This document shows, in pieces, positions 8,535 through 64,000 of a stretch of DNA of 64,000 nt. Source of the stretch: an uncultured Mycoplasmatota bacterium (GTDB lineage Bacteria; Bacillota_I; Bacilli_A; RF39; UBA660). A program made the position numbers and the translations under genes. The first letter of the stretch is position 1, and each line of letters opens with the position of its first letter. The DNA lies in contig CANOWY010000002.1 of assembly GCA_947571135.1 (NCBI GenBank), positions 5,569 to 69,568 of the forward strand, given 5' to 3'. The notes beneath the pieces are model-generated. The model saw nothing but the letters and a program-made list of their open reading frames with translations, was not told the origin of the DNA and searched no databases.

Positions 8535-8663
8535 TTATTTCGTAATTAGGTTTTTACGGCCTTTTTTTCTTCTATTTTTTAAAATTTTCGTTTCTTTACG
8601 TGCAAAAAAACCATGTTTCTTTGCTTTTTTTCTTTTATTTGGTTGATAAGTACCTATTTTCAT
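8535..8663 (-). CDS. rpmH: 50S ribosomal protein L34
   Basis: Manual translation gives MKIGTYQPNKRKKAKKHGFFARKETKILKNRRKKGRKNLITK. It is not in the ORF track because it is shorter than the ORF-track length cutoff. Confidence 0.9.
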   Translation of the reverse strand: MKIGTYQPNKRKKAKKHGFFARKETKILKNRRKKGRKNLITK

Positions 8664-9152: not shown

Positions 9153-10502
9153 TTGCTGGTTGAAGAGTTATGGGGACAGTTTTTAGAGAAAGTCAAAAAT
9201 GAAATAAATTCTGCTTCTTATAATGCTTGGTTTAATGATTTGAAACTTGTGAATATTAACAGTGATTTTTTAACCATACAGGTGCCGATGGAAATTCATA
9301 AGAAAATTCTTGCCGAAAATTATTATTCTTTAATAGAAGATATTTTATTTAAACTTTCTGGGATTAATTATGATATTAAATTTATTTTAAAAGATGAAAT
9401 CCAAGAAGTAATTGTAGAACCACAAACAATTCCACAAAATCCCGTAAATGATTTTTGGGAAAGTAACTTGGATCAATCCCTTAATTTTGATAATTATATT
9501 GTGGGAAATACTAATCGGTTTGCTAAAGTGGCCGGAATGGCTGTAGCAGAACAACCAGGAAAAATTCATAATCCATTATTTATATATGGAAAAAGTGGAC
9601 TTGGAAAAACACATTTAATGCACGCTATTGGAAATTTCATAACAGAAAATACCAATAAAAAAGTGTTATACACAACAAGTGATATGTTTATGAACGAATA
9701 TATTGGAATTGCTGGGATGGAAAAAGGAAAATCAGCAATAGATTATTCTAATAATTTTAAAAATAAATATCGAAATGTTGACGTTTTGATTATTGATGAT
9801 ATTCAATATTTAGTAGGGGCAGATAAAACGCAAGAGGAATTCTTTTATACTTTTAACGCTCTTCATCAAGCCAATAAACAAATTATTATTAGTTCTGATA
9901 GAAGTCCAGATGATTTAAAGAAAATAGAGGAGCGCTTAAGAAGCAGATTTATGTGGGGACTTCCTGTAAATATTGACCCGCCAGACTTTGATTTACGCGT
10001 CCGAATTATTAAACAAAAGTTAAAGGGAAAAAGTATTCAAGATAAGGTGGACGAAGAAGTTATTGAATTTATTGCAAATAGTTGTCAAAATGATGTACGA
10101 TTTATTGAAGGAACTTTAAACCGGCTTATGGCATATACAGCAATGATTGTTCCAGAGCGTATTGATTTAGAGTTTGCTAACGAGGCTTTAAAAGATTATA
10201 TCAATGTGAATATATATTCTGATAACTCGATTGATAACATTCAAAAAGCCGTAGCAGACTTTTATAATATTACTATAGAAGATTTAAAAGGGAAAAAGCG
10301 AAGTGCGAAGATTGCTTATCCACGGCAAATTGGGATGTATTTATCTAGAATGCTTACAGATGAAACTGTATCTAGAATTGGCATGCAATTTGGTGGTAGA
10401 GATCATTCTACTGTTATTCATGCTTGTGATAAAATAACAGATGACTTAAAAAGTAATAAAAAATTGGAAGAAGAAATTAATATGATTAAGAATAAATTTT
10501 AA
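9153..10502 (+). CDS. dnaA: Chromosomal replication initiator DnaA (TTG start)
   Basis: 449 aa with an AAA+ core (GKSGLGKTHL, Walker B VLIIDDIQ) and a C-terminal DnaA-box-binding domain. Confidence 0.97.
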   Translation: MLVEELWGQFLEKVKNEINSASYNAWFNDLKLVNINSDFLTIQVPMEIHKKILAENYYSLIEDILFKLSGINYDIKFILKDEIQEVIVEPQTIPQNPVNDFWESNLDQSLNFDNYIVGNTNRFAKVAGMAVAEQPGKIHNPLFIYGKSGLGKTHLMHAIGNFITENTNKKVLYTTSDMFMNEYIGIAGMEKGKSAIDYSNNFKNKYRNVDVLIIDDIQYLVGADKTQEEFFYTFNALHQANKQIIISSDRSPDDLKKIEERLRSRFMWGLPVNIDPPDFDLRVRIIKQKLKGKSIQDKVDEEVIEFIANSCQNDVRFIEGTLNRLMAYTAMIVPERIDLEFANEALKDYINVNIYSDNSIDNIQKAVADFYNITIEDLKGKKRSAKIAYPRQIGMYLSRMLTDETVSRIGMQFGGRDHSTVIHACDKITDDLKSNKKLEEEINMIKNKF

Positions 10503-10665
10503 AGTTGTGAATACATGTGCATAACTTGTAAGAAAAAAGTAGAGGTTATTCACAGGAAATAGAAATAAAAATATGGGAAAATAAAGGAAATAACGAAGTT
10601 ATAAACTTTATCCACTGTATAATAAATAAAATAAAAAAAAGAACAAATAAGAAAGAAGGAAAATT
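10503..10665. promoter_or_regulatory. Second DnaA-box cluster and AT-rich putative unwinding region between dnaA and dnaN
   Basis: One-mismatch boxes TGTGCATAA (10517-10525), TTATTCACA (about 10546) and TTATCCACT (10608-10616), followed by an A/T run at 10620-10645. This bipartite arrangement is typical of Firmicutes oriC. Confidence 0.6.
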
Positions 10666-11784
10666 ATGAAATTTGCAATTGATAAAAATATTTTGCTTGA
10701 AAATTTGAATCATGTAATAAAAGGAGTATCTACAAAAAATGTAATTCCTGTATTAAATGGAATTAAATTTGAATTAAACAATAATGGATTATCTTTAACC
10801 GCAAGTGATAGTGAACTTACAATTAATTCTTTTATTGAAGCAAAAGAGATTAAGAATATTGAAAGTATTGGAACTATTATTATTCAAAGTAAATTTTTGG
10901 TGGATATTATTAGAAAACTCCCAGGAGATGTGGCTAACTTTGAAGTTATCGACAGATTAAAGATTAGAATTTATACGGAAAATGCCCAATTTAATTTGAA
11001 TTGTTTAGATGCTAATGATTATCCTAATTTAAAAATGGAAGAACACAAAGACCCTATTATTTTAAAAGGAGATCTTTTGAAAACACTTATTAATCAAACT
11101 GTGTTTGCTATATCTACACAAGAATTAAGGCCATTACTTACAGGTGTAAATGTTACAATTGTTGGAGATGAACTTGTATTTATTGCAACGGATTCTTATC
11201 GACTTGCGAAGAAGAATATAAAACTTGAAAATGCGATTGAAACAGATATTAACATTGTTATTCCAGGAAAAAACATTATAGAACTTGAAAAAATTATTAC
11301 AGATGAAGAAAACGTAGAAATGCATATTTTTAATAATAAAGTATTGTTTAAGTATAAAAATATTAAGTTTCAAACGAATTTGTTATCAGGAACTTATCCA
11401 AATACATCGAATTTAATTCCAACTGACTATGCTATTATCGTAAAGGTACGAAAAGATGAATATGCATCAAGTGTTGATAGAGCCGCCCTTTTAACCCAAG
11501 GAAAAGATAAGAATATTATTAAAATGAAGTTGGAAAATAAAGTCATGACGATTAATTCTTATGCGTCTGAAATTGGAAAGGTAGAGGAAAAATTAGCAGT
11601 AGATACAGAAGCAAGTTCTAGTATTGATATTTCTTTTAGTTCTAAGTATATGTTGGAGGCATTAAGAACCATAAAAGAAGAAGAGATATTTCTTTTAATG
11701 ACAGATGATGTGAAACCTATTGTAATTAAATCTGTTAGTGATGAATCTTTAATCCAACTTATTTTACCAATCAAAACTTATTAA
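10666..11784 (+). CDS. dnaN: DNA polymerase III beta sliding clamp
   Basis: 372 aa with three beta-clamp domains, downstream of dnaA. Confidence 0.95.
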   Translation: MKFAIDKNILLENLNHVIKGVSTKNVIPVLNGIKFELNNNGLSLTASDSELTINSFIEAKEIKNIESIGTIIIQSKFLVDIIRKLPGDVANFEVIDRLKIRIYTENAQFNLNCLDANDYPNLKMEEHKDPIILKGDLLKTLINQTVFAISTQELRPLLTGVNVTIVGDELVFIATDSYRLAKKNIKLENAIETDINIVIPGKNIIELEKIITDEENVEMHIFNNKVLFKYKNIKFQTNLLSGTYPNTSNLIPTDYAIIVKVRKDEYASSVDRAALLTQGKDKNIIKMKLENKVMTINSYASEIGKVEEKLAVDTEASSSIDISFSSKYMLEALRTIKEEEIFLLMTDDVKPIVIKSVSDESLIQLILPIKTY

Positions 11785-11870
11785 TTTAGGTTTTTTTCTT
11801 TTTTCGACAAAATTTCTTTCTCATTGAAGTTATTATAGAGAACAATTTTTAACAGGTGGGAGGTGGTTTT

Positions 11871-12317
11871 GTGGATAAGTATGAAATTAACGATAAGACA
11901 ATTGCTCTTTATTCTCTTACGAATAAAACAAGAGTGTATGAAGAAGATCGATCTTTTGTTGTGGATGCTTTAGCAAGTGAAATTATGGAAGATAGTTGTA
12001 CCTATTTTGGTAGTTCTTTGGAAGGAAGAAAGAAAGGAACTCATAATTTGATAGGGGTATCTTATAAGGCGCCAGTTATCGTAGAAGAAAGTAATGATAT
12101 GATTTTTTTTCCTACAACAAGTCCTAAAGTAAAATCTTGTTCATGGTTACGCTTTAATAAAATTAAATGTTATTATTACAAAAATAATCATTTAGTAGTA
12201 GAGTTTAAGAATGGCGATAAAATTTTACTTAATATTTCTTATGATATGATTAATAATCAAGTTTTACGTGCTACTAGATTAGAATCAGTTTTAAGAGAAA
12301 GAAAAATTCAAAAATAA
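11871..12317 (+). CDS. ComK-family transcription factor-like protein
   Basis: CTYFGSSLEGRKKGT, IFFPTTSP...CSWL and ISYDMINNQVLRATRLESVL align with the B. subtilis ComK motifs CRFFGSSYAGRKAGT, FLFPTLS...CGWI and ISYNSFENQVYRTAWLRTKF. The likely start is the GTG at 11871, after a GGTGGGAGGTGG RBS. Confidence 0.6.
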   Translation: MDKYEINDKTIALYSLTNKTRVYEEDRSFVVDALASEIMEDSCTYFGSSLEGRKKGTHNLIGVSYKAPVIVEESNDMIFFPTTSPKVKSCSWLRFNKIKCYYYKNNHLVVEFKNGDKILLNISYDMINNQVLRATRLESVLRERKIQK

Positions 12318-12434
12318 AAGTGATTTCATGTAAAAAATGCTACAATAGAGTTTATAAATATGATATAATTTTAATAGGTATAGGAGTACATAAATACCTA
12401 TTATTTTATTATATGAGCGTAAAAGAGGCATAAT

Positions 12435-13526
12435 ATGCAAATACAGGAATTGAAATTACTAAATTTTAGAAATTATGAAAAGATACACATTACATTTGCA
12501 GACCACTTAAATATCATTTATGGAAAGAATGGAAGTGGCAAAACAAATTTAGTAGAGGCAATTTATGTACTTGCTCTTTCTAGAACTTTTAAACAAGCCA
12601 ACGATAAAACTTTGATTCGGAATGGAACTTCTTTAACTAAAATAGAAGGTATAGTGAATGCTAATTATCAAAATACTTATAAAGTAATTCTAACGCCAGA
12701 AGGTAAGAAAGTGAAAATTGATAACAATAAAATCACAAAGATAAGCGACTATATTTCTAAAATTAATATTGTTTTATTTAATCCAAATGATTTAAAAATG
12801 ATTAAGGATACGCCAAGTATAAGAAGAAAATATTTGAATATTGCAATTTCTCAATTAAATGTAAGTTATTTAAGAAAATTGAATGATTACAATAAACTGA
12901 TTAAAACAAGAAATGCTTATTTAAAAAAAATGTATTTGAATGGAAATTCTCTTCAATCTTATATGGATATTTTAACAGAGAAGATGGTAGAGATAGGATT
13001 AGAGATTTATGAAATACGTAAAAATTATATTTCTCTTATGAATAGTCATATAAGTTCTGTCTATAAAAGAATTGCAACAGAAGGAATTTTAAAGGTAAAT
13101 TATACTAGTGATTATGAAAATAAAACTAAAGAAGAGTTGATGATGGTTTATAAAAAGAATCTAAGTCGAGATTTAACTTTTGGAAAGACAAGTTTTGGAA
13201 TTCATCATGATGATTTAGAATTCATTTTAGATGATTTGCCTTTAAAAGAATATGGTTCAGAAGGACAACAAAAAAATGCTATCATTTCTTGGAAATTTAG
13301 TGAAATTACCATTATTCAAAAAGAGAAAAATGTAACTCCAATACTTATTTTAGATGATTTATTAAGTGAACTTGATATGGATAAGATTCATAATATTTTT
13401 ACGTTTATTGAAAATGATATTCAAACTTTTATAACAACAACAGAGATAGAGAAGGTGTCCTCTTTGTTGGAGAACGAAAAATATAAAAAGATTCATGTTA
13501 GTAATGGAAAACTAGAGGAGGTATAA
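12435..13526 (+). CDS. recF: DNA replication and repair protein RecF
   Basis: 363 aa with an SMC-like N-terminal Walker A (GKNGSGKTN) and the conserved position after dnaN. Confidence 0.95.
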   Translation: MQIQELKLLNFRNYEKIHITFADHLNIIYGKNGSGKTNLVEAIYVLALSRTFKQANDKTLIRNGTSLTKIEGIVNANYQNTYKVILTPEGKKVKIDNNKITKISDYISKINIVLFNPNDLKMIKDTPSIRRKYLNIAISQLNVSYLRKLNDYNKLIKTRNAYLKKMYLNGNSLQSYMDILTEKMVEIGLEIYEIRKNYISLMNSHISSVYKRIATEGILKVNYTSDYENKTKEELMMVYKKNLSRDLTFGKTSFGIHHDDLEFILDDLPLKEYGSEGQQKNAIISWKFSEITIIQKEKNVTPILILDDLLSELDMDKIHNIFTFIENDIQTFITTTEIEKVSSLLENEKYKKIHVSNGKLEEV

Positions 13527-13529
13527 AAA

Positions 13530-15452
13530 ATGGATGAAAAAGTAACACATTATAATGATGATGATATTCAAGTATTAGAAGGACTAGAAGCCGTTCGAAA
13601 GAGGCCAGGTATGTATATTGGTACCACGAGTGAAAAAGGGCTTCACCATTTAGTTTGGGAAATTGTCGATAATGCAATTGATGAAGCCTTAGCCGGATAT
13701 TGTGATGACATCGAGGTTGTGATTGGTAAAGGGAATACGATAACTGTTAAAGATGATGGACGTGGAATGCCAACTGGTATCAACAAAAAAACGGGGTTAT
13801 CCACAGTAGAAACGATTTTTACAGTGTTGCATGCTGGAGGTAAATTCGGTGGCGGTGGCTACAAAGTGAGTGGAGGACTTCATGGTGTAGGTGCCAGTGT
13901 TGTGAATGCCTTATCAACTTGGCTTGAGGTAACTGTTTATCACGATGGTAAAATATTTTATCAAAAATTCCAAGATGGTGGAAAACCTGTAGAAGAATTA
14001 AAAGAAATTGGTACTTGTGAAGAAAATAGGACAGGAACTACCGTTACGTTTAAGGCAGATCCAGAGATATTCACAGAAACAACTGTTTATAATTATGAAA
14101 CTTTAGCGAAACGTTTACAGGAACTTGCTTTCTTAAATAAAGGAATTCGTATTATTTTAATTGATGAGCGTGAAGAAGAGAAGAAGAACGAGTTTTTGTA
14201 TAATGGTGGAATTATTGAATATGTGCAGATGTTAAATAAAAATAAGAAACCAATTCATGAAAATGTAATGTATTTTGAAGGTACAGAAGATGGAATAGAA
14301 TTAGAAGTTGCTATGCAATACAATGATTCTTATAATGCTAATGTGTATAGTTTTACCAATAATATCAATACATACGAAGGTGGAACACATGAAGATGGTG
14401 TTAAAAGAGCATTAACTCGAATTATTAATAATTATGCTAGAAATAATAAAATTTTAAAAGATAATGATGAAGCGTTAACAGGAGAAGATGTTCGTGAGGG
14501 TTTAACTATGATTATTTCTTGTAAACATCCAGATCCTCAATTTGAAGGACAAACAAAAACAAAGTTAGGAAATGCAGAAGTAAGAAAAATAGCCGATGAT
14601 GTTTTTAGTGAAGGTTTTGAACGTTTCTTGATGGAAAATCCAAATGAAGCAAAAACGATTATAGAAAATGCAAATACAGCAGCGAGGGCTAGACTTGCTG
14701 CGAAAAAGGCAAGAGAACTTACAAGAAGAAAATCTCCACTGGATACGATTAATACATTAGGCAAGTTAGCAGATTGTACAAGTAAGGACGCTACGATATC
14801 TGAAATATTTATTGTCGAAGGGGATAGTGCGGGAGGAAGTGCTAAAAGTGCCAGAATTCCAAAAACTCAAGCCATACTTCCTTTAAGAGGTAAGATTTTA
14901 AATGTAGAAAAAGCAAGACTTGATAGAGCATTATCGAATGAAGAAATTAGAACCATGATTACAGCATTTGGTACTGGTATTGGTGAGGATTTTGATATTG
15001 AAAAATTAAGATATCACAAAATTGTTATAATGACTGATGCCGATGTGGATGGTTCACATATTCAAATCTTATTATTAACATTGTTTTATCGTTTCTTTAG
15101 ACCGATTATTGAAGGTGGGTATGTGTATATCGCTCAACCGCCATTATTTAGAATTACGCATGGTAAAAATATTAAATATGTGCAAGATGAAGTTGAGTAT
15201 GAAGAATATCGTGCTACCTTACCTGCAAGTGCAAAGCCTACAGTAAATCGTTTTAAAGGGTTAGGAGAAATGAATGCGGAAGATTTACGTGATACCACAA
15301 TGAGTATTGAAAATCGTGTCTTAAGAAGGGTGACAATTGAAGATGCTATGGCTGCCGATAAAATAATATCCGAATTCATGGGTGATGATGTATTGCCACG
15401 TAAAGTATTTTTGGAAGAGCATGGTCACGAATATACGGAATTGGATGTTTAG
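13530..15452 (+). CDS. gyrB: DNA gyrase subunit B
   Basis: 640 aa with a GHKL ATPase domain, a Toprim domain (EGDSAGG) and a PLRGKILNV motif. Confidence 0.97.
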
Positions 15453-15464
15453 GAGGGTTAAATT

Positions 15465-18023
15465 ATGGATAAGATAGTAGAAAATAATATTACAGAAGAG
15501 TTTAGAAAATCCTTTGGTACTTATGCAATGAGTGTAATTGTCGATCGTGCTTTGCCAGACTTAAGAGATGGTTGTAAACCTGTTCACCGCCGTATTTTAT
15601 ATTCTATGTATGAGGCTGGTTATACTCCTGATAAACCGTATCGTAAGTGTGCGAGAATTGTCGGAGATGTAATGGGAAAATATCATCCACATGGGGATAC
15701 TTCTATTTATGATGCTATGGTTCGTATGGCTCAAAACTTTAGTTTTAGACATATGTTAGTAGATGGTCATGGTAATTTTGGTAATATGGATGGCGATGGT
15801 GCTGCTGCCATGCGTTATACCGAAGCAAAGTTATCAAAAATTGCATTGGAAATGGTTAGAGATATCAACAAAGATACAGTGGATTTTGTACCTAATTTTG
15901 ATGAAACGGAACATGAACCTAAAGTTTTGCCTAGTAGATTTCCAAATATTTTAGTCAATGGGACGATGGGTATTGCTGTAGGTATGGCAACGAATATTCC
16001 ACCACATAATTTAGGAGAAGTTATTGATGGATGTGTTGCTTACATTGATAATCACGACATTGATGTAGAGGGCTTAATGCAATATATTAAGGGACCAGAT
16101 TTTCCAACAGGTGCTTCAATACTTGGAAATAGCGGAATAAGAAAAGCCTATGAAACAGGAAAAGGTTCTATTACCATTCGTGGACAAGCCGATATTGAAG
16201 AAGTTAATGGTAAAACAAGAATTGTTGTATCTTCATTGCCTTATCAAGTAAATAAAAGTGAGTTCCAGTCTCGTATTGGAGAACTTGTTCGTGATAAAGT
16301 TATTGATGGAATTAGTGAATTGCATGAAGAATCTAATTTAGAAAATCCAGTGCGTGTAGTTATCTACATTAAAAGAGATGCGAATGCAAATGTAGTTTTA
16401 AATAATCTGTATAAATATACACAATTGCAAAATTCTTATGGTATTAATTTACTCATGATTGATCAAGGTTCTCCTAAGATATTAGGGCTTAAAGATATTA
16501 TTTCTAAGTATATCGATTATCAAAAAGAAATTATTATTCGTAGAACAAAATATGATTTAAAGAAGGCAGAAGAAAGAGTTCATATTTTAGAAGGTTTAAA
16601 GATTGCTTTAGATCATTTAGATGAAGTTATTAAAACGATTCGTGAGTCTGCTACAGATGTTATTGCAAAAGAACAATTGATGTCTAAGTTTGGTTTAGAT
16701 GATATCCAAGCCAATGCAATACTTGAAATGAAATTGCGTCGTTTAACAGGTTTGGAAAGAGAAAAGATAGAGAATGAACTAGCCGAACTTTTAAAAACGA
16801 TTGATGAATTAAGAGCCATTCTTGCTAGTGATGAAAAAGTTCTTGCTATTATTAGAGAAGAACTATTAGAAATTAAAAATAAGTATGCAGATGAGAGAAG
16901 AACTAACATTGATATGTCTGCTATTGAGTATATAGAAGATGAATCATTAATTCCAGTGGAAGATATAATGATAGCACTTACTCACAATGGTTATATTAAA
17001 CGTACAACATCAGATACATTTAAATTGCAAAATCGTGGTGGAGTAGGTATTAAAGGAATGAATACTAACGAAGAAGATTTTGTTGAGCATTTAGTGAACT
17101 TATCCACACATGATTTTGTGTTATTCTTTACGAATAAAGGAAAAGTGTATCGCTTAAAAGGATATGAAATTCCAGAATTTAGTCGTCAATCTAAAGGTTT
17201 ACCAGTTATCAACTTACTTCAAATTGAAAAAGAAGAAAAGATAAATTCTATATTAAGTGTAAAAAGAGAAGATAATGCGAAATATTTATTATTTGCGACG
17301 AAGCAAGGTATTGTAAAACGTACTAGTATTAATGAATTTGAAAATATTCGAAACAATGGAAAGATTTGTATTAGTTTAAGACCTAATGATGAGTTAATTG
17401 CTGTTAAGAAAACTACTGGAGAAGATTGTGTCCTTCTTGGTTCTGATAATGGACGTATGGTTAAGTTTATAGAAGATGAGATACGTGTTATGGGAAGAAC
17501 TGCTAGTGGCGTAAGAGGTATTAACTTAGATGGTGGGGAATGTATTGGGGCAGAAATTGCTACTGATACTGATTCTTTAATTATCGTAACGAAGCAAGGT
17601 TATGGTAAACAAACTATAATTAGTGATTATCGTCAAACGAGACGTGGTAGCAAAGGTGTAAAGGCATTAAATATTACTGAGAAGAATGGACCGATGGCTG
17701 CGTTTAGATTAGCACAAGAAAATAGCGATTTGATTATTATTACCAATACTGGAATGGTTATTCGTGTCCCTCTTGATCAAATTAATACTCTTGGAAGAGT
17801 TACACAAGGTGTAAGAGTTATCAACTTAAAAGGTGAACAAGAAGTTTCAAATATAAGTTTGGTAGAGAAGACACCGGAAATAACAGAAACTGAAGTACAA
17901 GACGAAAATATTTCAATAGAACAAACTCAAGTTGAATCTGATACTGTTACTTCAAATGAAAAAATCGAGAGTGATATTCCTGAAGTTGAATTAAGTACAG
18001 AAGTGAAAGAAAACGAAAATTAA
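15465..18023 (+). CDS. gyrA: DNA gyrase subunit A
   Basis: 852 aa with the active-site region [10 protein letters not shown] and a C-terminal beta-pinwheel ending in an acidic tail. Confidence 0.97.
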
Positions 18024-59400: not shown

Positions 59401-59526
59401 AAAGGATATAAGGAATATATTGAAAAAAGATTTCAAAAAAGTGTTAGAGTATTTTTGTATTCAATAGTAAAAGAAAGTCTTGAAGAAATAAAGTTACAAG
59501 ACTTGGATGTTTTAATGGAAGTCTAG
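56410..59526 (+). CDS. addA: AddA helicase-nuclease subunit (UvrD/PcrA-like SF1 helicase plus C-terminal nuclease)
   Basis: 1038 aa with helicase motif I (GAGSGKTAVL), motif II (DEYQDTN) and the C-terminal nuclease motif (VIDLL...IVDYKL). Confidence 0.92.
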   Translation: MSMWTKEQKDAIHFDHSNIIVSAGAGSGKTAVLSERVIRKLKDGVNINELLILTFTKAAAEEMKIRIRNKISKDDSLKSQLALLDASYITTFDAYALAIVKKYNYLLNVSKNISIIESSIISIKKEELLDSVFDEYYVSRDEKFLKFIDDFCVKDDGVVKVCILEMNNKLDMRYDKAEYLKNYIVNYYNDNFINKLIQEYENLILEKVSLLHEQVLKLEEFVSTEYAEKLNESLGELLIADSYQKVVSNINTIPRLPKNAEEEAKVVKEKISDCLKEIDTLCSYRDLEEIKDSLYKTKNYVEVIIEIILRLDAKVNDYKFQNDLFEFCDIAKMAIRVLEENEEICMQLRASLNEIMIDEYQDTNDLQEKFISFLAKDNVYMVGDIKQSIYRFRNANPNLFKEKYDQYSLHEGGIKIDLNKNFRSRKEVLQNINLIFNLVMSDFVGGASYSASHQMCYGNTSYDEIGSTAHSNDLEILNYVYDKTAGYSKEEIEIFTIATDIKKKMEEQYEIFDKDAQIKRPIRYEDIVILMDRSTHFYLYKKVFEYLNIPMAIYKDESITDSVTIAIVKNILYLLLNRYPNQEFKYAFISVLRSFLFREEDNVIFSYFVNQNYEDSFLLKIIESIDYFMLNPKEVMEEIIEKFAFYEKIVTVGDVDKHIAILDYLLTIADSLGKMRYTLEDFYHYLCVLQEKNYDITIHSLKQENGVKIMTIHKSKGLEFHLCYFSGLSSKFNLSDVNARFLYDKKYGIVTPFLDRGIRGTICKDLIKISQLKEEISERIRLFYVALTRAKEKMIFVASLKEESPFVLDRVIDYQKLEYRSLLDILNSIKGNLSSFIRRVDLDNIGLTHDYNYIKEYNFRELIEYKKCNLDVDMLVKEENVVEKERFSKVSTKLMSREEMENMRSGVYFHEIMENFDFTNPNYSGLDDFDVRKIQAFIGTGILDRALHLYKEYEFKYIVKDTVLHGVIDLLIEEESEFKIVDYKLVNTKDEVYIKQLKGYKEYIEKRFQKSVRVFLYSIVKESLEEIKLQDLDVLMEV

Positions 59527-59639
59527 CATGGATTGAGTTTGATATTATTTGCTCTAAAAAGTGGTAGTTTGATGGTGTGAAATGATTATTTTAACCAATT
59601 TTGTATTTTTTTCATACTTTATACTAGAGGTGAAAAACA

Positions 59640-59726
59640 TGTCTATAAGAGCGACTAAAAAAGTAGTAATAGATCCTGGTCACCCAAGGTATTTGTTCCC
59701 CAACAATAATATGTTGTGGTAAACGA
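59640..59726 (+). pseudogene. 28-codon remnant of an Amidase_3-type gene
   Basis: MSIRATKKVVIDPGHPRYLFPNNNMLW*, to compare with cwlD KLIVIDVGHGG. A stop follows immediately, at the left edge of the terminal island. Confidence 0.35.
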
Positions 59727-59803
59727 TAAATCTATAAGTTAAGGTACTATGTTAGCAGAGTATCTTTTTTAGTGATATAATTATATAAAGAGGTGAAATT
59801 AAC

Positions 59804-60511
59804 ATGATTTACAAAAAGACATATCAAGTTGAAGGAAAGATAATTACAAAAAATGAGATTACTAGCTTAATAAACAATATTTTATCAAAACTTTCAAATG
59901 AAATAGAACTAAATTTAAATATTAAAGCAGATTTTGTAGATCAAAGTTCTCTTGAAGATAATGCAATAGAATTATTAAATGATATATATTTTGACAAAAA
60001 GAAATTAAAAGATATTGAAATAAAGATATATTGCAATCACTTTGATGATCACATTTATATAACCTTGAATAATAATTATTATTCAAGCAGTATATCTTTA
60101 CAAATTAATGAAAAAAAGCTTTATGATTCAATATGCCATAGTATAGAAGAAAATTTAAATTTAATGGATAATCAAAATAAGATTTATTTACTGTCAAGTA
60201 AAAGTTGGGGATACTTTGTTTTATATATTCCAATTGTTGCATTAGAGGTATTATTAATTCTTATTTTGAATGAAGTTTTTAATTGTAAAATATCAACAAT
60301 AATGATGATTACATTGATGTTCTTAATACCTAGTTTAGCTTCCATGTATATAATAAAATATATTGAAAAGAAATATCCAATAAATCAATTTGATTTTGGA
60401 GAATCATCAATAAACCATTTTAGAAATGAGAAATCAGTATTTTTAAAAATAATAGGCTTTGTTATTACAAATATATTGTTGCCAATATTAGTTTCATTAA
60501 TTACTAAATAG
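59804..60511 (+). CDS. Hypothetical protein with a soluble N-terminal domain and a C-terminal 3-TM bundle
   Basis: 235 aa with hydrophobic segments at about residues 145-165, 170-190 and 210-232. No other motif was recognised. Confidence 0.45.
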   Translation: MIYKKTYQVEGKIITKNEITSLINNILSKLSNEIELNLNIKADFVDQSSLEDNAIELLNDIYFDKKKLKDIEIKIYCNHFDDHIYITLNNNYYSSSISLQINEKKLYDSICHSIEENLNLMDNQNKIYLLSSKSWGYFVLYIPIVALEVLLILILNEVFNCKISTIMMITLMFLIPSLASMYIIKYIEKKYPINQFDFGESSINHFRNEKSVFLKIIGFVITNILLPILVSLITK

Positions 60512-60591
60512 TTTTAAATATAAATTATAATGGTATGCGTAAGAGCATATCTTTTTGTTTTGCAAAATTTTAAAGATTGGAGGAATGATAT

Positions 60592-61858
60592 ATGAATTAT
60601 GCAATTTTTAAAAGTGAACCAATAATGACACTCAATGATTTAGCACAAATTGGTTCATACAATAAACGAGAAAAGAAAGCCTATAATTCTAACCCTGATA
60701 TTAAGTTAGAATTAACAAAAGAAAATATTGAATTAGTGCCTTTAGCAGATAAATATGTTAAAGGCTTTTATAATTTAACAAAAGAATATAAAAAGGAACA
60801 TGATGAACGAATGAAAACGGAACGAGAAGATAGAAAAAGAAGTTTTAAACAAATGGTAGATAAATCTAAAAGTGTTGTTGCTGATGAACTTTTATTTACA
60901 GCTACGCATGAGTTTTTTAAGGATATGAGTAAAGAAGATATTAAAAAGTGGGCAGAAGTTTGTATGGATTTTGTTTATAAAGATTTAGGATATACAAAAG
61001 AACAAGTACTACATAGTGTTATACATTTAGATGAAAAAACACCTCATATTCATTGTGTAGTAGTACCTTTAGTAAAAAAATATGATAAAAGAACAAATAC
61101 GGAAAGATATACGATTTCTAAAAAACAATACATTAGAGATAAACTTCATTTATCTGAATTACAAGATATTTACCATAAAAGATTAATTGATAACGGCTAT
61201 GATTTGGAACGAGAGAATTAAACATAGTGATAATGAGAGTATTCCTATTAGAGAATATAAAAAGATAATACGAAAACTTAATCATACTTTAAATGTTAGG
61301 AATGAAAGACTAGAAAATGCCATGACTGATTTAGAAGAACAAATGAAAAGCAATAAAGATGTTATGTTTGATAAAGAATATGTTAAAGTGAAGAAAGAAA
61401 CTTTTGATACTATGAATCATGTTTTTAAAGAAACAAAAAAGGTTATGGAAATACAACCTAAATTGCAACAAGTTTTTGATGAAGTAGATAGTTATTCCCA
61501 AAATTATCTTTCAGTTCAAAAAGAAAATAAAAGAGTAAAAAAAGAAGTTGAAACTTTAAAAAATAAAAATAAGAAATTACAAGAAGAAAATAAAAATCTA
61601 ATTTCCTATATTAGGTCTATGTTAAAGGGTATTAAATATTTTTTTAGAGAGTTACTACAAATTGGTAATGAGAAAACAAAAGAGGTTACTACGAACGAAA
61701 TTAAGGACTATTTTGATAACGAAGATTTTAATAAAGAAGATGTTTATGATATTGCAAAAGAAACTACTAAAGAAAGTGAATTATTTGATTATGCAGATAT
61801 TCCTAGTTATATGAGGATTAGCAAAAAGTCTTATGAAAAAGAAGATCTTAGTTTATAG
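60592..61858 (+). pseudogene. mob: MobV-family (Mob/Pre) relaxase, frameshifted into two ORFs (60592-61221 and 61187-61858)
   Basis: The N-terminus MNYAIFKSEPIMTLND...YNKREK and the motif HLDEKTPHIHCVVVP match the Mob_Pre HxDE..PHxH relaxase signature. ...DNGYDLERE (pMV158 MobM has DHGFELERGK) continues in the +1 frame as IKHSDNE... with a coiled-coil C-terminus. The frames switch within GAGAGAATTAA (61207-61221). Confidence 0.7.
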
Positions 61859-61938
61859 TTTAAATAAGTTTAATTATTATATTTGTTTTATATATATATA
61901 TTATTATATGATATAATTAATGCCAAGAGGTGTTTTAA

Positions 61939-63522
61939 ATGAATACAAAAGTTTTAGTTAAAAATAATTTTAAAAGAGAATTTAGAAAGTGGCTTTCTAG
62001 TAATAGCAATAATTTTGCGGTTAAAAAGAATACTGCTAATTCGTATGTTGCATTGTTAAATGTTTTAAATAACACTATGTTGGAGATGAATTTAATTTCT
62101 ACTTCAATATTTGAAATTGTGCAATATGATAAATTGCAAGAGTCTTATGATTTATTTGAAAGTACAGATGATTTAAAAAACTATTTTCAAAATACTACAT
62201 ATAGTTATTACACAATAAAGAACGCATTTAATAAATATTTAATATTTTTTAAAACTATGATTTTAGGTGAAGAGATTATAGATGAAATTGAGTATGATAA
62301 TAGAAAACTTTTTTCTAAGTGGCTACTTAACAAAGAAAATAATAGAGGCGAATATTTTTCAAAGAATACAGTTAATCAGTATCTAGGTGTATTATCTAAT
62401 GTAAGTTCAGAATTAATATCAAATAATTTAACTAATATGAAAATATTTGATATTAAAACTAGTGAAGAATTAAAAAATGTTTTTGAAAAAGCAGAAACTT
62501 TGGATATTTTTACACAATTTATTAATAATCATCAGCCAATTAATAGTGTAAAATCTTTATATATTGAATTTTTGGAAGAAAAGGAAAATAGCGGACTTAC
62601 AGAAGAATCTATGAATTCTGATTATAACAATATATATGATTCTAGTTTTATTAAGTACACAGAAATAGATTTTTTAAATGAAGTATTTGTTGAAAAAGAA
62701 AAATATGAAACTATGAAAAGTAGACTTTTGAAAAAGAAAAATATAATAATTCAAGGCTCTCCAGGAGTTGGAAAAAGTTTTTTATCTAAAAGGTTAGTTT
62801 ATTCTATTATCGGAAGTAAAAATAGTGAATTTGTTGAAATGGTTCAATTTCATCAAAATTATTCTTATGAAGATTTTGTTATGGGATATAGACCTACAGG
62901 AAGAGGAAACTTTGAATTAAAAAATGGAATTTTTTACAATATTTGTAATGTTGCAAAAAGAAATCCTAATCAAAAATATTTTTTAATCATAGATGAAATA
63001 AATAGAGGAAATTTAAGCAAAATATTTGGTGAGTTACTTCTTTTGATTGAAAATGATAAAAGAGGTGAAGAATATTCTATTCCTTTATTATATAAATCTG
63101 AATTAAAATTTTTTGTTCCGGAAAATTTATATATTATAGGTATTATGAATACTGCAGATAGAAGTTTGGCATTTATGGATTATGCATTAAGAAGAAGATT
63201 TAGTTTTATTGAAATTGAACCACAATTCAAATCAAATAAATTTCAAATGTATTTAAAAAAATGTAACGAGTATAGATATTTAGAAAAAATATTAAATATT
63301 ATAGACAATATAAATCAATCAATATTAGAAGATGAAACTTTGGGAAAGAATTATATGATTGGACATAGTTATTTTTGCAATCTTGAAGAGTCATCTAAGA
63401 ATGATATAAATGAAATAATCAATTTTGATATTATACCTTTAATTGAGGAATATTGGATTAATAATGAAAGCAAGTTTCTAGAATTTAAAAATGAATTATC
63501 GGGGGCAATCGAATATGACTAA
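61939..63522 (+). CDS. mcrB: McrB-like GTPase subunit of a type IV (modification-dependent) restriction system, with an unassigned ~250-aa N-terminal domain
   Basis: The AAA_5/McrB core has IIIQGSPGVGKS (Walker A), the McrB signature QFHQNYSYEDFV, IIDEINRGN and IGIMNTADRS. Confidence 0.8.
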   Translation: MNTKVLVKNNFKREFRKWLSSNSNNFAVKKNTANSYVALLNVLNNTMLEMNLISTSIFEIVQYDKLQESYDLFESTDDLKNYFQNTTYSYYTIKNAFNKYLIFFKTMILGEEIIDEIEYDNRKLFSKWLLNKENNRGEYFSKNTVNQYLGVLSNVSSELISNNLTNMKIFDIKTSEELKNVFEKAETLDIFTQFINNHQPINSVKSLYIEFLEEKENSGLTEESMNSDYNNIYDSSFIKYTEIDFLNEVFVEKEKYETMKSRLLKKKNIIIQGSPGVGKSFLSKRLVYSIIGSKNSEFVEMVQFHQNYSYEDFVMGYRPTGRGNFELKNGIFYNICNVAKRNPNQKYFLIIDEINRGNLSKIFGELLLLIENDKRGEEYSIPLLYKSELKFFVPENLYIIGIMNTADRSLAFMDYALRRRFSFIEIEPQFKSNKFQMYLKKCNEYRYLEKILNIIDNINQSILEDETLGKNYMIGHSYFCNLEESSKNDINEIINFDIIPLIEEYWINNESKFLEFKNELSGAIEYD

Positions 63523-64000
63523 TTTATATAAAAATAAAATTCCAATAAAGAATGTTTATTATATGCTATCATATGCTTATGATTTTTTGGAATATGAAGA
63601 ATTAAATCATTTAGGGGAAGAACAATTTGATAATATATATGAAATGTTATCTATAATACTTCTGCAGGGAATTTATAGTCAGATAAAAAAAGGATTATAT
63701 AAAGAATATATTGATATTAATGAAGATCTACCTTACATAAAAGGAAAATTGAATATGAATAACACTTTATTTTGCATATGTAATAGTTCAATTAATGTTA
63801 ATTGTGATTATGAAAAATATAGTATTAATAATATATTCAATCAAATTATTAAAACAACATTAATCTTATTGCAAAATAAAGATATTGACTTAACAATAAA
63901 ACAAAAAATTAGTAAGTGTTTGGAATATTTTTATGAAGTTGATGTTGTAAACTTTGATAATAACTTTTCATGGAAAAGTATTATTTACAACAGGAACAAT
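63515..64000 (+). CDS. mcrC: McrC-like nuclease subunit (5' part; runs off the window end)
   Basis: The N-terminus ...IPIKNVYYMLSYAYDFLEY matches the McrC N-terminal signature. It overlaps the mcrB stop by 8 nt. Confidence 0.7.
   Translation, partial: MTNLYKNKIPIKNVYYMLSYAYDFLEYEELNHLGEEQFDNIYEMLSIILLQGIYSQIKKGLYKEYIDINEDLPYIKGKLNMNNTLFCICNSSINVNCDYEKYSINNIFNQIIKTTLILLQNKDIDLTIKQKISKCLEYFYEVDVVNFDNNFSWKSIIYNRNN

What the first reader, a model, noticed from the sequence alone, without database searches (positions are those of the whole stretch)
59527..64000. Terminal island after addA: amidase remnant, membrane protein, frameshifted MobV relaxase and McrBC
Immediately after addA there is a 28-codon remnant of an Amidase_3 gene (MSIRATKKVVIDPGH…). 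Next come a 235-aa protein with a C-terminal 3-TM bundle, a MobV/Pre relaxase split by a +1 frameshift at 61207-61221, and a McrB (QFHQNYSYEDFV, IIDEINRGN, MNTADRS) plus McrC (NVYYMLSYAYDF) pair. The relaxase indicates that the segment derives from a mobilisable plasmid or integrative element, now decayed. The McrB N-terminal ~250 aa, which in McrB-like proteins is the modified-DNA reader, shows no DUF3578, YTH or SRA-like motifs that I can recognise. It may be a new specificity domain.
Basis: partly seen in the sequence, partly recalled or inferred. Interest (0 to 1): 0.55.

Follow-up and report, generated by a model that had tools for sequence, protein, structure and literature searches.

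The report
McrBC island splits an amidase gene
The segment after addA is the left half of a ~9.5-kb mobilisable element that inserted into a cell-wall amidase gene and carries an McrBC restriction system whose DNA-binding end looks like two copies of a recombinase DNA-binding domain; this is a fairly ordinary defence island with one uncharacterised detail.

The parts
59639..59682 (+). Host DNA: the 5' end (start codon through the CA of His15) of an Amidase_3 autolysin gene interrupted by the element. The remaining 12 codons of the 27-codon ORF (to 59722) are read-through into element DNA.
   Evidence: Searches show the ORF. In L001 the gene resumes at 8551 with GGTDPGTIANGITEKEY.... The rejoined 63 aa are 74-82% identical to uninterrupted genes. 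The L011 orthologue is 400 aa, Amidase_3 plus LysM repeats.
59660..59710 (+). attL, with the crossover dinucleotide CA at 59681-59682. The element begins at 59683.
   Evidence: attL (GATCCTGGT-CA-CCCAAGG) and attR (TTCAAGC-CA-TGGTGGT, L001 8549-8550) share only CA. The reconstructed attP has symmetric TTCCCCAA arms 14-21 nt from the centre (read from the output). The same junction is seen in L003 and L005.
59804..60511 (+). Cargo slot 1: a 235-aa protein of unknown function with three C-terminal membrane spans.
   Evidence: There is no hit in Pfam, NCBIfam, PADLOC or PHROGs. Hydropathy supports the spans. Other genes occupy this slot in L003 and L005.
60533..60570 (+). Candidate oriT: a weak hairpin (GGTATGC-GTAAGA-GCATATC) followed by the conserved T-rich TGCAA stretch, just upstream of mobV.
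   Evidence: L003 and L005 have a hairpin at the same position with a different stem (AAGATAC...GTATCTT), followed by the conserved TTTTATTATGCAA. The fold is not significant on its own (z -0.6 to -1.2).
60592..61858 (+). mobV (MobV/Pre relaxase), a pseudogene caused by a 1-nt insertion (A at 61214). Frame 0 stops at 61219-61221. The repaired product is 421 aa.
   Evidence: The repaired protein aligns as one piece (residues 1-318) to intact plasmid MobV genes. An intact 425-aa allele is present in L005.
61939..63522 (+). mcrB, 527 aa and intact. It has Walker A GSPGVGKS (residue 273), Walker B LIIDE (about residues 349-353) and the NxxD signature MNTADRS (residue 403).
   Evidence: The NCBIfam McrB model matches residues 239-522 at E 1.6e-92.
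61963..62268 (+). McrB N-terminal module 1 (residues 9-110): a five-helix bundle resembling a recombinase core-binding domain.
62293..62592 (+). McrB N-terminal module 2 (residues 119-218): a paralogue of module 1 (27% identity over 92 aa).
   Evidence: Homologous modules in other McrB proteins hit Pfam PF13102.
63515..64000 (+). mcrC, 5' part (cut by the window end). The full gene is 349 aa (357 aa from an upstream ATG at 63491) in the identical contig L001. It overlaps the end of mcrB.
   Evidence: The full sequence carries a PD-(D/E)xK-like motif, YTDIVI...LIIDTKFY.

Best explanation
**The element.** Window 59683-64000 is the left 4.3 kb of a ~9.45-kb integrative mobilisable element. A TndX/TnpX-type large serine recombinase, encoded at the element's far end beyond the window, inserted it at a CA dinucleotide inside the His codon of the DPGHGG motif of a chromosomal Amidase_3 autolysin gene. 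That gene lies directly after addA.

**Backbone.** The order is attL, cargo slot 1, candidate oriT plus mobV, cargo slot 2, an HTH_3 regulator, small ORFs, an HTH_36 protein, the serine recombinase, attR.

**This copy.**
- Slot 1 holds a 3-TM protein of unknown function.
- Slot 2 holds a canonical McrBC restriction system.
- The copy is being immobilised: mobV carries a 1-nt insertion, and the recombinase has a stop at codon 455 of 532.

**Inferred mechanism of McrBC.**
- The two tandem core-binding-like helical modules at the McrB N-terminus are its only candidate DNA-binding part. They tether the GTP-driven McrB hexamer to target DNA.
- McrC then cleaves.

**What is shown and what is inferred.**
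- Shown: gene content, junctions, lesions, and the fold resemblance.
- Inferred: DNA binding by the modules, dependence on DNA modification, and past mobility.
For: **Extension beyond the window.**
- L001 is 100% identical to window 60584-64000.
- It continues through mcrC, a 40-aa and a 177-aa ORF, an HTH_3 regulator on the minus strand, an 85-aa ORF, an HTH_36 protein, and a recombinase with Resolvase, Recombinase, Zn_ribbon_recom and DUF4368 domains.
- The in-frame continuation of the amidase gene follows.

**Split gene.**
- Rejoining the two halves gives an open reading frame that is 74-82% identical to uninterrupted amidase genes.
- Only 2 bp are shared between attL and attR. This is what is reported for Tn4451-type elements (PMC5704250, read).

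**Recombinase.** It aligns end to end with TndX (533 aa, 33% identity). The stop falls inside the alignment.

**Related copies at the same site.**
- L003 comes from a genome whose AddA is 99% identical. It has the same attL, mobV (92% nt identity) and regulator module, but different cargo: SLFN_AlbA_2/HATPase_c_4, DUF4238 and an AAA ATPase. Its mobV carries a different lesion, TGG to TGA.
- L005 sits in a different amidase allele. It has an intact 425-aa mobV and McrBC at 95% nt identity, but its regulator module and most of the recombinase are deleted.

**Genetic code.** The host uses code 11, so TGA is a stop.

**McrBC.** McrB and McrC match their family models. No methyltransferase is encoded in the element.

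**N-terminal modules.**
Against: **Element.**
- The right half, attR and the recombinase stop are seen only in a metagenome contig that overlaps the window by 3.4 kb, not in the window itself.
- No empty attB from this species was found, and no circular form.
- The oriT hairpin is statistically weak.
- Whether loss of the DUF4368 tail inactivates the recombinase is unknown.

**N-terminal modules.**
- The window's own two modules give no Pfam hit.
- Pfam hits in homologous modules are local: module residues about 4-49 match profile positions 49-94 of 98.
- Foldseek found nothing significant against PDB or BFVD.
- A profile search of PDB sequences found nothing.
- DNA binding and target specificity are untested.
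Confidence: 0.8

Rival explanations
1. One reading: a decayed fragment of a mobilisable plasmid lying next to a degenerate amidase pseudogene, with no defined integration machinery.
For: mobV's nearest annotated relatives are on small plasmids of Priestia, Bacillus and Clostridium. mobV is frameshifted.
Against: The two amidase halves rejoin precisely and in frame across a 2-bp crossover. A serine recombinase sits at the right end. The same junction occurs in three copies. No plasmid replication gene of a recognised Rep family was found.
Confidence: 0.04
2. A skin-like intervening element. On this reading, regulated excision by the serine recombinase rebuilds the amidase gene in a particular cell type or condition, so the interruption acts as a genetic switch.
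For: A coding gene is split exactly in frame by an element whose own large serine recombinase lies next to attR. The skin and SPbeta intervening elements have this layout (my knowledge, not checked in a paper here).
Against: - The recombinase has a premature stop in this copy, and most of it is deleted in L005.
- The element carries a relaxase and swaps defence cargo between copies, as mobilisable elements do.
- The amidase orthologue is not a CwlD equivalog (67 bits against a cutoff of 221).
- I did not look for sporulation genes in the host.
Confidence: 0.06
3. The tandem helical modules are not the DNA-targeting part of McrB. They would instead be a spacer, an oligomerisation surface or a partner-binding surface, and target recognition would lie elsewhere.
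For: In many homologues one such module sits between another N-terminal domain and the GTPase. Examples are DUF3578/PF12102 in P0022 and P0035, and DUF8425 in P0002. This is compatible with an adaptor role. No DNA-binding test has been done.
Against: In this protein, and in P0046 and P0072, the modules are the only region outside the GTPase. McrB needs some DNA-binding part. The closest folds are DNA-binding domains.
Confidence: 0.2
4. The mobV split is functional: either programmed +1 frameshifting or two separate proteins.
For: The same split is present in three assemblies (window, L001, L002).
Against: Those three are at least 99.98% identical, so they are one lineage. Relatives lack the extra A and read through. 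No slippery motif is evident at the site on inspection of the sequence. L003 carries an unrelated nonsense lesion in the same gene.
Confidence: 0.03

Closest known systems
Tn4451/Tn4453 and Tn5397-type elements (TnpX/TndX large serine recombinases; Tn4451 also carries the MobV-family relaxase TnpZ)
   Same: - A single large serine recombinase with the Resolvase, Recombinase, Zn-ribbon and DUF4368 architecture. It is collinear with TndX over 533 aa.
- A 2-bp crossover (PMC5704250).
- A MobV relaxase and no transfer-pore genes, so the element depends on a helper for transfer.
   Different: - Only 33-35% identity to TndX.
- The crossover is CA inside one specific gene motif, seen in three copies. 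Tn4451 is reported to have low target specificity (PMC5704250).
- The cargo is defence genes rather than antibiotic resistance.
- In this copy both the relaxase and the recombinase carry lesions.
Canonical E. coli-type McrBC (type IV restriction)
   Same: - An McrB AAA+ GTPase core with Walker A/B and the NxxD signature.
- An overlapping downstream mcrC with a PD-(D/E)xK-like motif.
- No methyltransferase gene nearby.
   Different: The N-terminus is not DUF3578. It is two all-helical modules resembling recombinase core-binding domains. The described McrB readers are DUF3578, a YTH fold and a B3 domain (PMC7680126).
Tyrosine-recombinase core-binding (SAM-like) domain (Pfam Phage_int_SAM_1 and Phage_int_SAM_5; XerD, lambda Int, IntI4)
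   Same: - A five-helix bundle of about 100 aa.
- The motif F-x2-W-L ... T-x3-Y-x3-L in helices 1-2, which gives PF13102 hits in 16 of 31 homologous modules.
   Different: - No catalytic recombinase domain follows; the modules are fused to a GTPase and duplicated in tandem.
- The Pfam matches are local and in a shifted register.
- The window's own copies fall below every Pfam threshold.
LlaJI / LlaI / BsuMI (McrBC-like systems that bind unmodified DNA site-specifically)
   Same: They are a precedent for an McrB-type motor that is targeted by a domain which does not read modified bases (PMC7680126; bioRxiv 10.64898/2026.08.31.748284).
   Different: Those systems come with methyltransferases, and LlaI and BsuMI have a separate R1 subunit. 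Here there is no methyltransferase in the element, and the modules are fused to McrB.

Membership tests
McrBC type IV restriction system | McrB AAA+ GTPase core with Walker A, Walker B and the NxxD signature | tested here: met
   AAA_5 E 1.5e-21 and NCBIfam McrB E 1.6e-92 over residues 239-522. GSPGVGKS, LIIDE and MNTADRS are present.
McrBC type IV restriction system | An adjacent McrC partner with a nuclease motif | tested here: met
   Pfam McrBC E 1.5e-19 and NCBIfam McrC E 5.5e-36 on the window part. The full 349-aa gene in L001 carries D...IDTK.
McrBC type IV restriction system | An N-terminal reader of modified bases of a described type (DUF3578, YTH, PUA/EVE, SRA) | tested here: not met
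   No such hit in Pfam, NCBIfam, PADLOC or PHROGs. The fold is all-helical.
McrBC type IV restriction system | Cleavage depends on DNA modification | not testable with these tools
   This needs restriction assays. The only indirect point is that the element carries no methyltransferase.
MobV (Mob/Pre) relaxase | Matches the family model above its curated cutoff, including the HxDE...PHxH motif | tested here: met
   Pfam Mob_Pre 80 bits (cutoff 25.5) and NCBIfam MobV 102.3 bits (cutoff 100). HLDEKTPHIH is present. Assigning that motif to the family rests on my own knowledge.
MobV (Mob/Pre) relaxase | An uninterrupted reading frame | tested here: not met
   An extra A at 61214 shifts the frame. 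An intact allele exists in L005.
MobV (Mob/Pre) relaxase | A cognate oriT upstream of the gene | tested here: inconclusive
   A hairpin is conserved in position with different stems. It is not more stable than shuffles. No nick site has been defined.
Integrative mobilisable element | Its own integrase and att sites flanking the element | tested here: met
   The serine recombinase lies next to attR. attL and attR share CA. The rejoined attB restores the host ORF. This rests on contig L001, which is identical to the window over 3,417 bp.
Integrative mobilisable element | A relaxase but no coupling protein or mating-pore genes | tested here: met
   The gene list of the whole 9.45 kb is.
Integrative mobilisable element | Demonstrated excision or transfer, or an empty site in the same species | tested here: not met
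   The exact 38-nt attB was not found in the metagenome collection. Only more distant orthologues are uninterrupted.
TnpX/TndX large serine recombinases | Resolvase + Recombinase + Zn_ribbon_recom + DUF4368, collinear with TndX | tested here: met
   See (33% identity over 533 aa).
TnpX/TndX large serine recombinases | A full-length open reading frame | tested here: not met
   An in-frame TAA lies at codon 455 (L001 8256-8258).
Tyrosine-recombinase core-binding / Phage_int_SAM domain | Sequence match to a Pfam SAM-like model above the gathering score | tested here: inconclusive
   - The window's own modules give no hit.
- Homologous modules do: 16 of 31 hit PF13102, best E 3.9e-9, up to 36 bits against a cutoff of 22.3.
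- Those hits cover only about 45 residues, in a shifted register.
Tyrosine-recombinase core-binding / Phage_int_SAM domain | Fold match to solved core-binding domains | tested here: met

The most novel reading that the evidence does not exclude
The tandem modules could represent an uncharacterised class of McrB targeting domain. On this reading an all-helical, recombinase-type major-groove binder replaces the base-flipping readers. It would give McrBC a sequence-, structure- or modification-specific target range different from the DUF3578, YTH or PUA types. The module occurs in one to three copies in roughly a quarter of the closest McrB homologues. In proteins such as P0004 and P0005, which lack the GTPase, it may also act as a separate subunit.
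Probability: 0.35. Interest if true: 0.5.

Novelty: new variant of a known kind. Interest (0 to 1): 0.35.

Why it matters
- **Annotation.** What looks like a dead amidase stub is half of a split gene. The "island" has exact ends that can be used to find and compare further copies. That matters for defence-island and hotspot catalogues.
- **Element biology.** One backbone at one site carries different defence cargo in each copy, and each copy has lost a different mobility function. This illustrates how mobilisable elements become fixed defence loci.
- **McrBC.** The result adds a candidate DNA-binding module, recurrent but apparently undescribed, to the known range of McrB N-terminal domains. 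There are homologues in cultured bacteria where it could be tested, for example P0026 of Paenibacillus lentus.

Tried and rejected
**Searches that found nothing or failed**
- The word-indexed protein search found nothing, not even the query itself, with the N-terminal 245 aa or with the module alignment. The exhaustive phmmer search and a search with full-length McrB worked.
- Single-sequence AF2 of the whole McrB was useless (pLDDT 36).
- PDB sequence-profile searches with the module alignments found nothing.
- Foldseek against PDB and BFVD found nothing significant. AFDB50 was not available.
- The recombinase has no relative in the viral contig collection.
- The exact 38-nt attB was not found in the metagenome collection.

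**Ideas considered and rejected**
- Genetic code 4, which would make the TGA in L003's mobV a Trp codon. It is rejected because all 75 Trp codons in the long ORFs are TGG, TGA ends three ORFs, and no long ORF is interrupted.
- CwlD identity for the amidase. The score is below the equivalog cutoff.
- Synteny in the more distant AddA relative L004. There is no amidase or element after its addA, so it gives no information about the site.


Full report
**Observation**

- addA ends at 59526.
- A 27-codon ORF at 59639-59722 starts MSIRATKKVVIDPGH.
- A 235-aa ORF at 59804-60511 has three hydrophobic C-terminal spans and no family match in Pfam, NCBIfam, PADLOC or PHROGs.
- The MobV relaxase is in two pieces, 60592-61221 and 61187-61858 (Mob_Pre E 2.7e-22; NCBIfam MobV 102 bits).
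- McrB (61939-63522, 527 aa) matches the NCBIfam McrB model over residues 239-522 (E 1.6e-92).
- McrC begins at 63515 and runs off the window.

**The amidase piece is half of a split gene**

An exact-protein look-up of McrB returned two metagenome contigs. L001 is 100% identical to window 60584-64000 and extends 5.3 kb further. After mcrC it encodes:
- a 40-aa and a 177-aa ORF;
- an HTH_3 regulator on the minus strand;
- an 85-aa ORF, an HTH_36 protein and a 48-aa ORF;
- a large serine recombinase with Resolvase, Recombinase, Zn_ribbon_recom and DUF4368 domains.

About 50 nt after the recombinase the sequence reads ...TTCAAGCCATGGTGGTACTGACCCTGGG..., which translates to GGTDPGTIANGITEKEYTLKISEY. 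This is the direct continuation of DPGH in an Amidase_3 domain.

The left junction is GATCCTGGT-CA-CCCAAGG and the right junction is TTCAAGC-CA-TGGTGGT. They share only CA. Joining them gives an uninterrupted frame, MSIRATKKVVIDPGHGGTDPG.... That 63-aa product is 74-82% identical to uninterrupted genes in gut and rumen metagenomes. One of these genes (L011) encodes a 400-aa Amidase_3 protein with LysM repeats.

A 2-bp crossover is what has been reported for Tn4451-type serine-recombinase elements (PMC5704250). The reconstructed attP has matching TTCCCCAA arms at equal distance from the centre (read).

The element therefore spans window 59683 to about 9.45 kb downstream. Its G+C is 23-25%, against 27.8% for the rest of the window. 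Positions 59527-59682 of the finding are host DNA.

**A family of elements at the same site**

| Copy | Host | Slot 1 cargo | Slot 2 cargo | mobV | Recombinase |
|---|---|---|---|---|---|
| Window / L001 | this genome | 235-aa 3-TM protein | McrBC, 40-aa and 177-aa ORFs | 1-nt insertion at 61214 | stop at codon 455 of 532 |
| L003 | MAG titled "uncultured Tenericutes bacterium", AddA 99% identical | SLFN_AlbA_2/HATPase_c_4 protein, DUF4238 protein, 226-aa protein | 365-aa protein plus an AAA ATPase | TGG to TGA nonsense | not seen (beyond the fetched stretch) |
| L005 | different amidase allele (MSIRATKKVVLDAGH) | 229-aa and 224-aa proteins | McrBC, 95% nt identity | intact, 425 aa | only an internal fragment remains; regulator module deleted |

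- L003 has the same attL, the same mobV at 92% nt identity, and the same regulator module.
- L005 has the same junction sequence.
- The backbone is therefore conserved while two cargo slots vary. Each copy has lost a different mobility function.

The evidence for each lesion is as follows.
- **Window mobV.** It has an extra A relative to L003 and L005. The repaired 421-aa protein aligns as one piece to intact plasmid MobV genes.
- **L003 mobV.** TGA is a stop in this host. In 43 long ORFs of the window, all 75 Trp codons are TGG and TGA ends three ORFs.
- **L001 recombinase.** It aligns end to end with TndX (533 aa, 33% identity). An in-frame TAA at codon 455 lies inside the alignment. Whether the truncated protein still works is unknown.

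No empty site from this species was found.

**Candidate oriT**

L003 and L005 have a hairpin at the same place with a different stem, followed by a conserved T-rich TGCAA stretch. This fits an oriT upstream of mobV but does not prove one.

**The McrBC system**

- McrB has Walker A, Walker B and the canonical NxxD motif.
- McrC is full length in L001 and has a PD-(D/E)xK-like motif.
- The element contains no methyltransferase.

**The McrB N-terminus**

*Repeat structure and distribution.*
- Residues 12-101 and 122-212 are paralogous (27% identity).
- An exhaustive phmmer search of 1.84 billion representatives found only six proteins at E <= 0.001.
- A search with the whole protein, followed by a module HMM, gave a wider picture. 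About 30 of the roughly 120 closest McrB homologues carry one to three copies. The module occurs alone or combined with other N-terminal domains such as DUF3578 or DUF8425.
- Two proteins (P0004, P0005) have two modules and no GTPase.

*Fold.*
- With 14 modules as the alignment, AlphaFold2 gave a confident five-helix bundle (pLDDT 91.2, pTM 0.85).
- The lambda Int core-binding domain, XerH, SroF and MrpR appear lower in the list.

*Sequence.*
- 16 of 31 homologous modules hit Pfam Phage_int_SAM_5, best E 3.9e-9.
- P0004 gives a weak collinear Phage_int_SAM_1 hit.

*Caveats.*
- The window's own modules give no Pfam hit.
- The PF13102 hits cover only helices 1-2, and they match the C-terminal half of the model.
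- Foldseek and PDB sequence-profile searches are negative.

I put homology to the recombinase core-binding domain at about 0.7.

*Literature.* No paper in the held library mentions McrB together with a core-binding or SAM-like domain. The described readers are DUF3578, YTH and B3 (PMC7680126). The architecture is already flagged by automatic Pfam annotation in a few database entries.

**Mechanism**

The element integrated by serine-recombinase crossover at CA. This is shown by the junctions, although the event itself is inferred. It could formerly be mobilised by a helper conjugative element through MobV acting at an upstream oriT. That is inferred from the family, and it is now blocked by the frameshift.

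McrBC most likely works as in the canonical system (PMC7680126 and my knowledge of the family). The N-terminal modules bind target DNA, GTP-driven McrB hexamers assemble with McrC, and the DNA is cut. What the modules recognise is unknown. The absence of a methyltransferase favours a modification-dependent or otherwise non-self target over plain sequence recognition. LlaJI-type site-specific binding remains a formal precedent.

**Verdict**

This is a well-defined but ordinary integrative mobilisable element with defence cargo, caught in the process of being fixed. The one feature worth follow-up is the recombinase-like tandem module on McrB.

Noticed in passing
window 9153-18023: dnaA, dnaN, recF, gyrB and gyrA lie in order here (NCBIfam equivalog hits). 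The window therefore covers the replication-origin region, and the element sits about 50 kb from dnaA.
   Followed up: partly
L003 11773-13873: In the related element, about 118 bp of the element's left end (equivalent to window 59679-59794) is duplicated at 13756-13873. The two copies flank a 2-kb segment carrying a SLFN_AlbA_2/HATPase_c_4 gene. This may be a nested or tandem insertion using the same end sequence.
   Followed up: partly
L005 5860-6216: In this copy, which has the intact mobV, mcrC and part of the 177-aa gene are joined directly to an internal 357-bp fragment of the recombinase gene. A DUF8370/DUF8371 gene follows. This could be a deletion or an assembly join.
   Followed up: partly
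L006 3166-13694: P0002 is an McrB with three copies of the module plus DUF8425. It sits with its McrC on a different mobilisable element that has a tyrosine-integrase fragment, Prim-Pol, a MobC/Relaxase pair and TnpV. No methyltransferase was called next to it.
   Followed up: no
P0004 (380 aa), P0005 (325 aa): These proteins have two copies of the module and no GTPase. P0004's C-terminal domain resembles the N-terminal domain of the McrB homologue P0089. They could be stand-alone DNA-binding subunits or truncated gene calls. Their genomic context could not be looked up.
   Followed up: no
L001 4120-4653 and 3989-4111 (just beyond the window end): A 40-aa hydrophobic ORF and a 177-aa ORF with no family match follow mcrC, in both L001 and L002. 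Whether they belong to the McrBC unit is unknown.
   Followed up: no
window 61939-62673 used as a query: The word-indexed protein search returned nothing for the N-terminal 245 aa or for the module alignment, not even the parent protein. That protein is in the collection. Negative results from this tool on short queries like these were not reliable here.
   Followed up: yes
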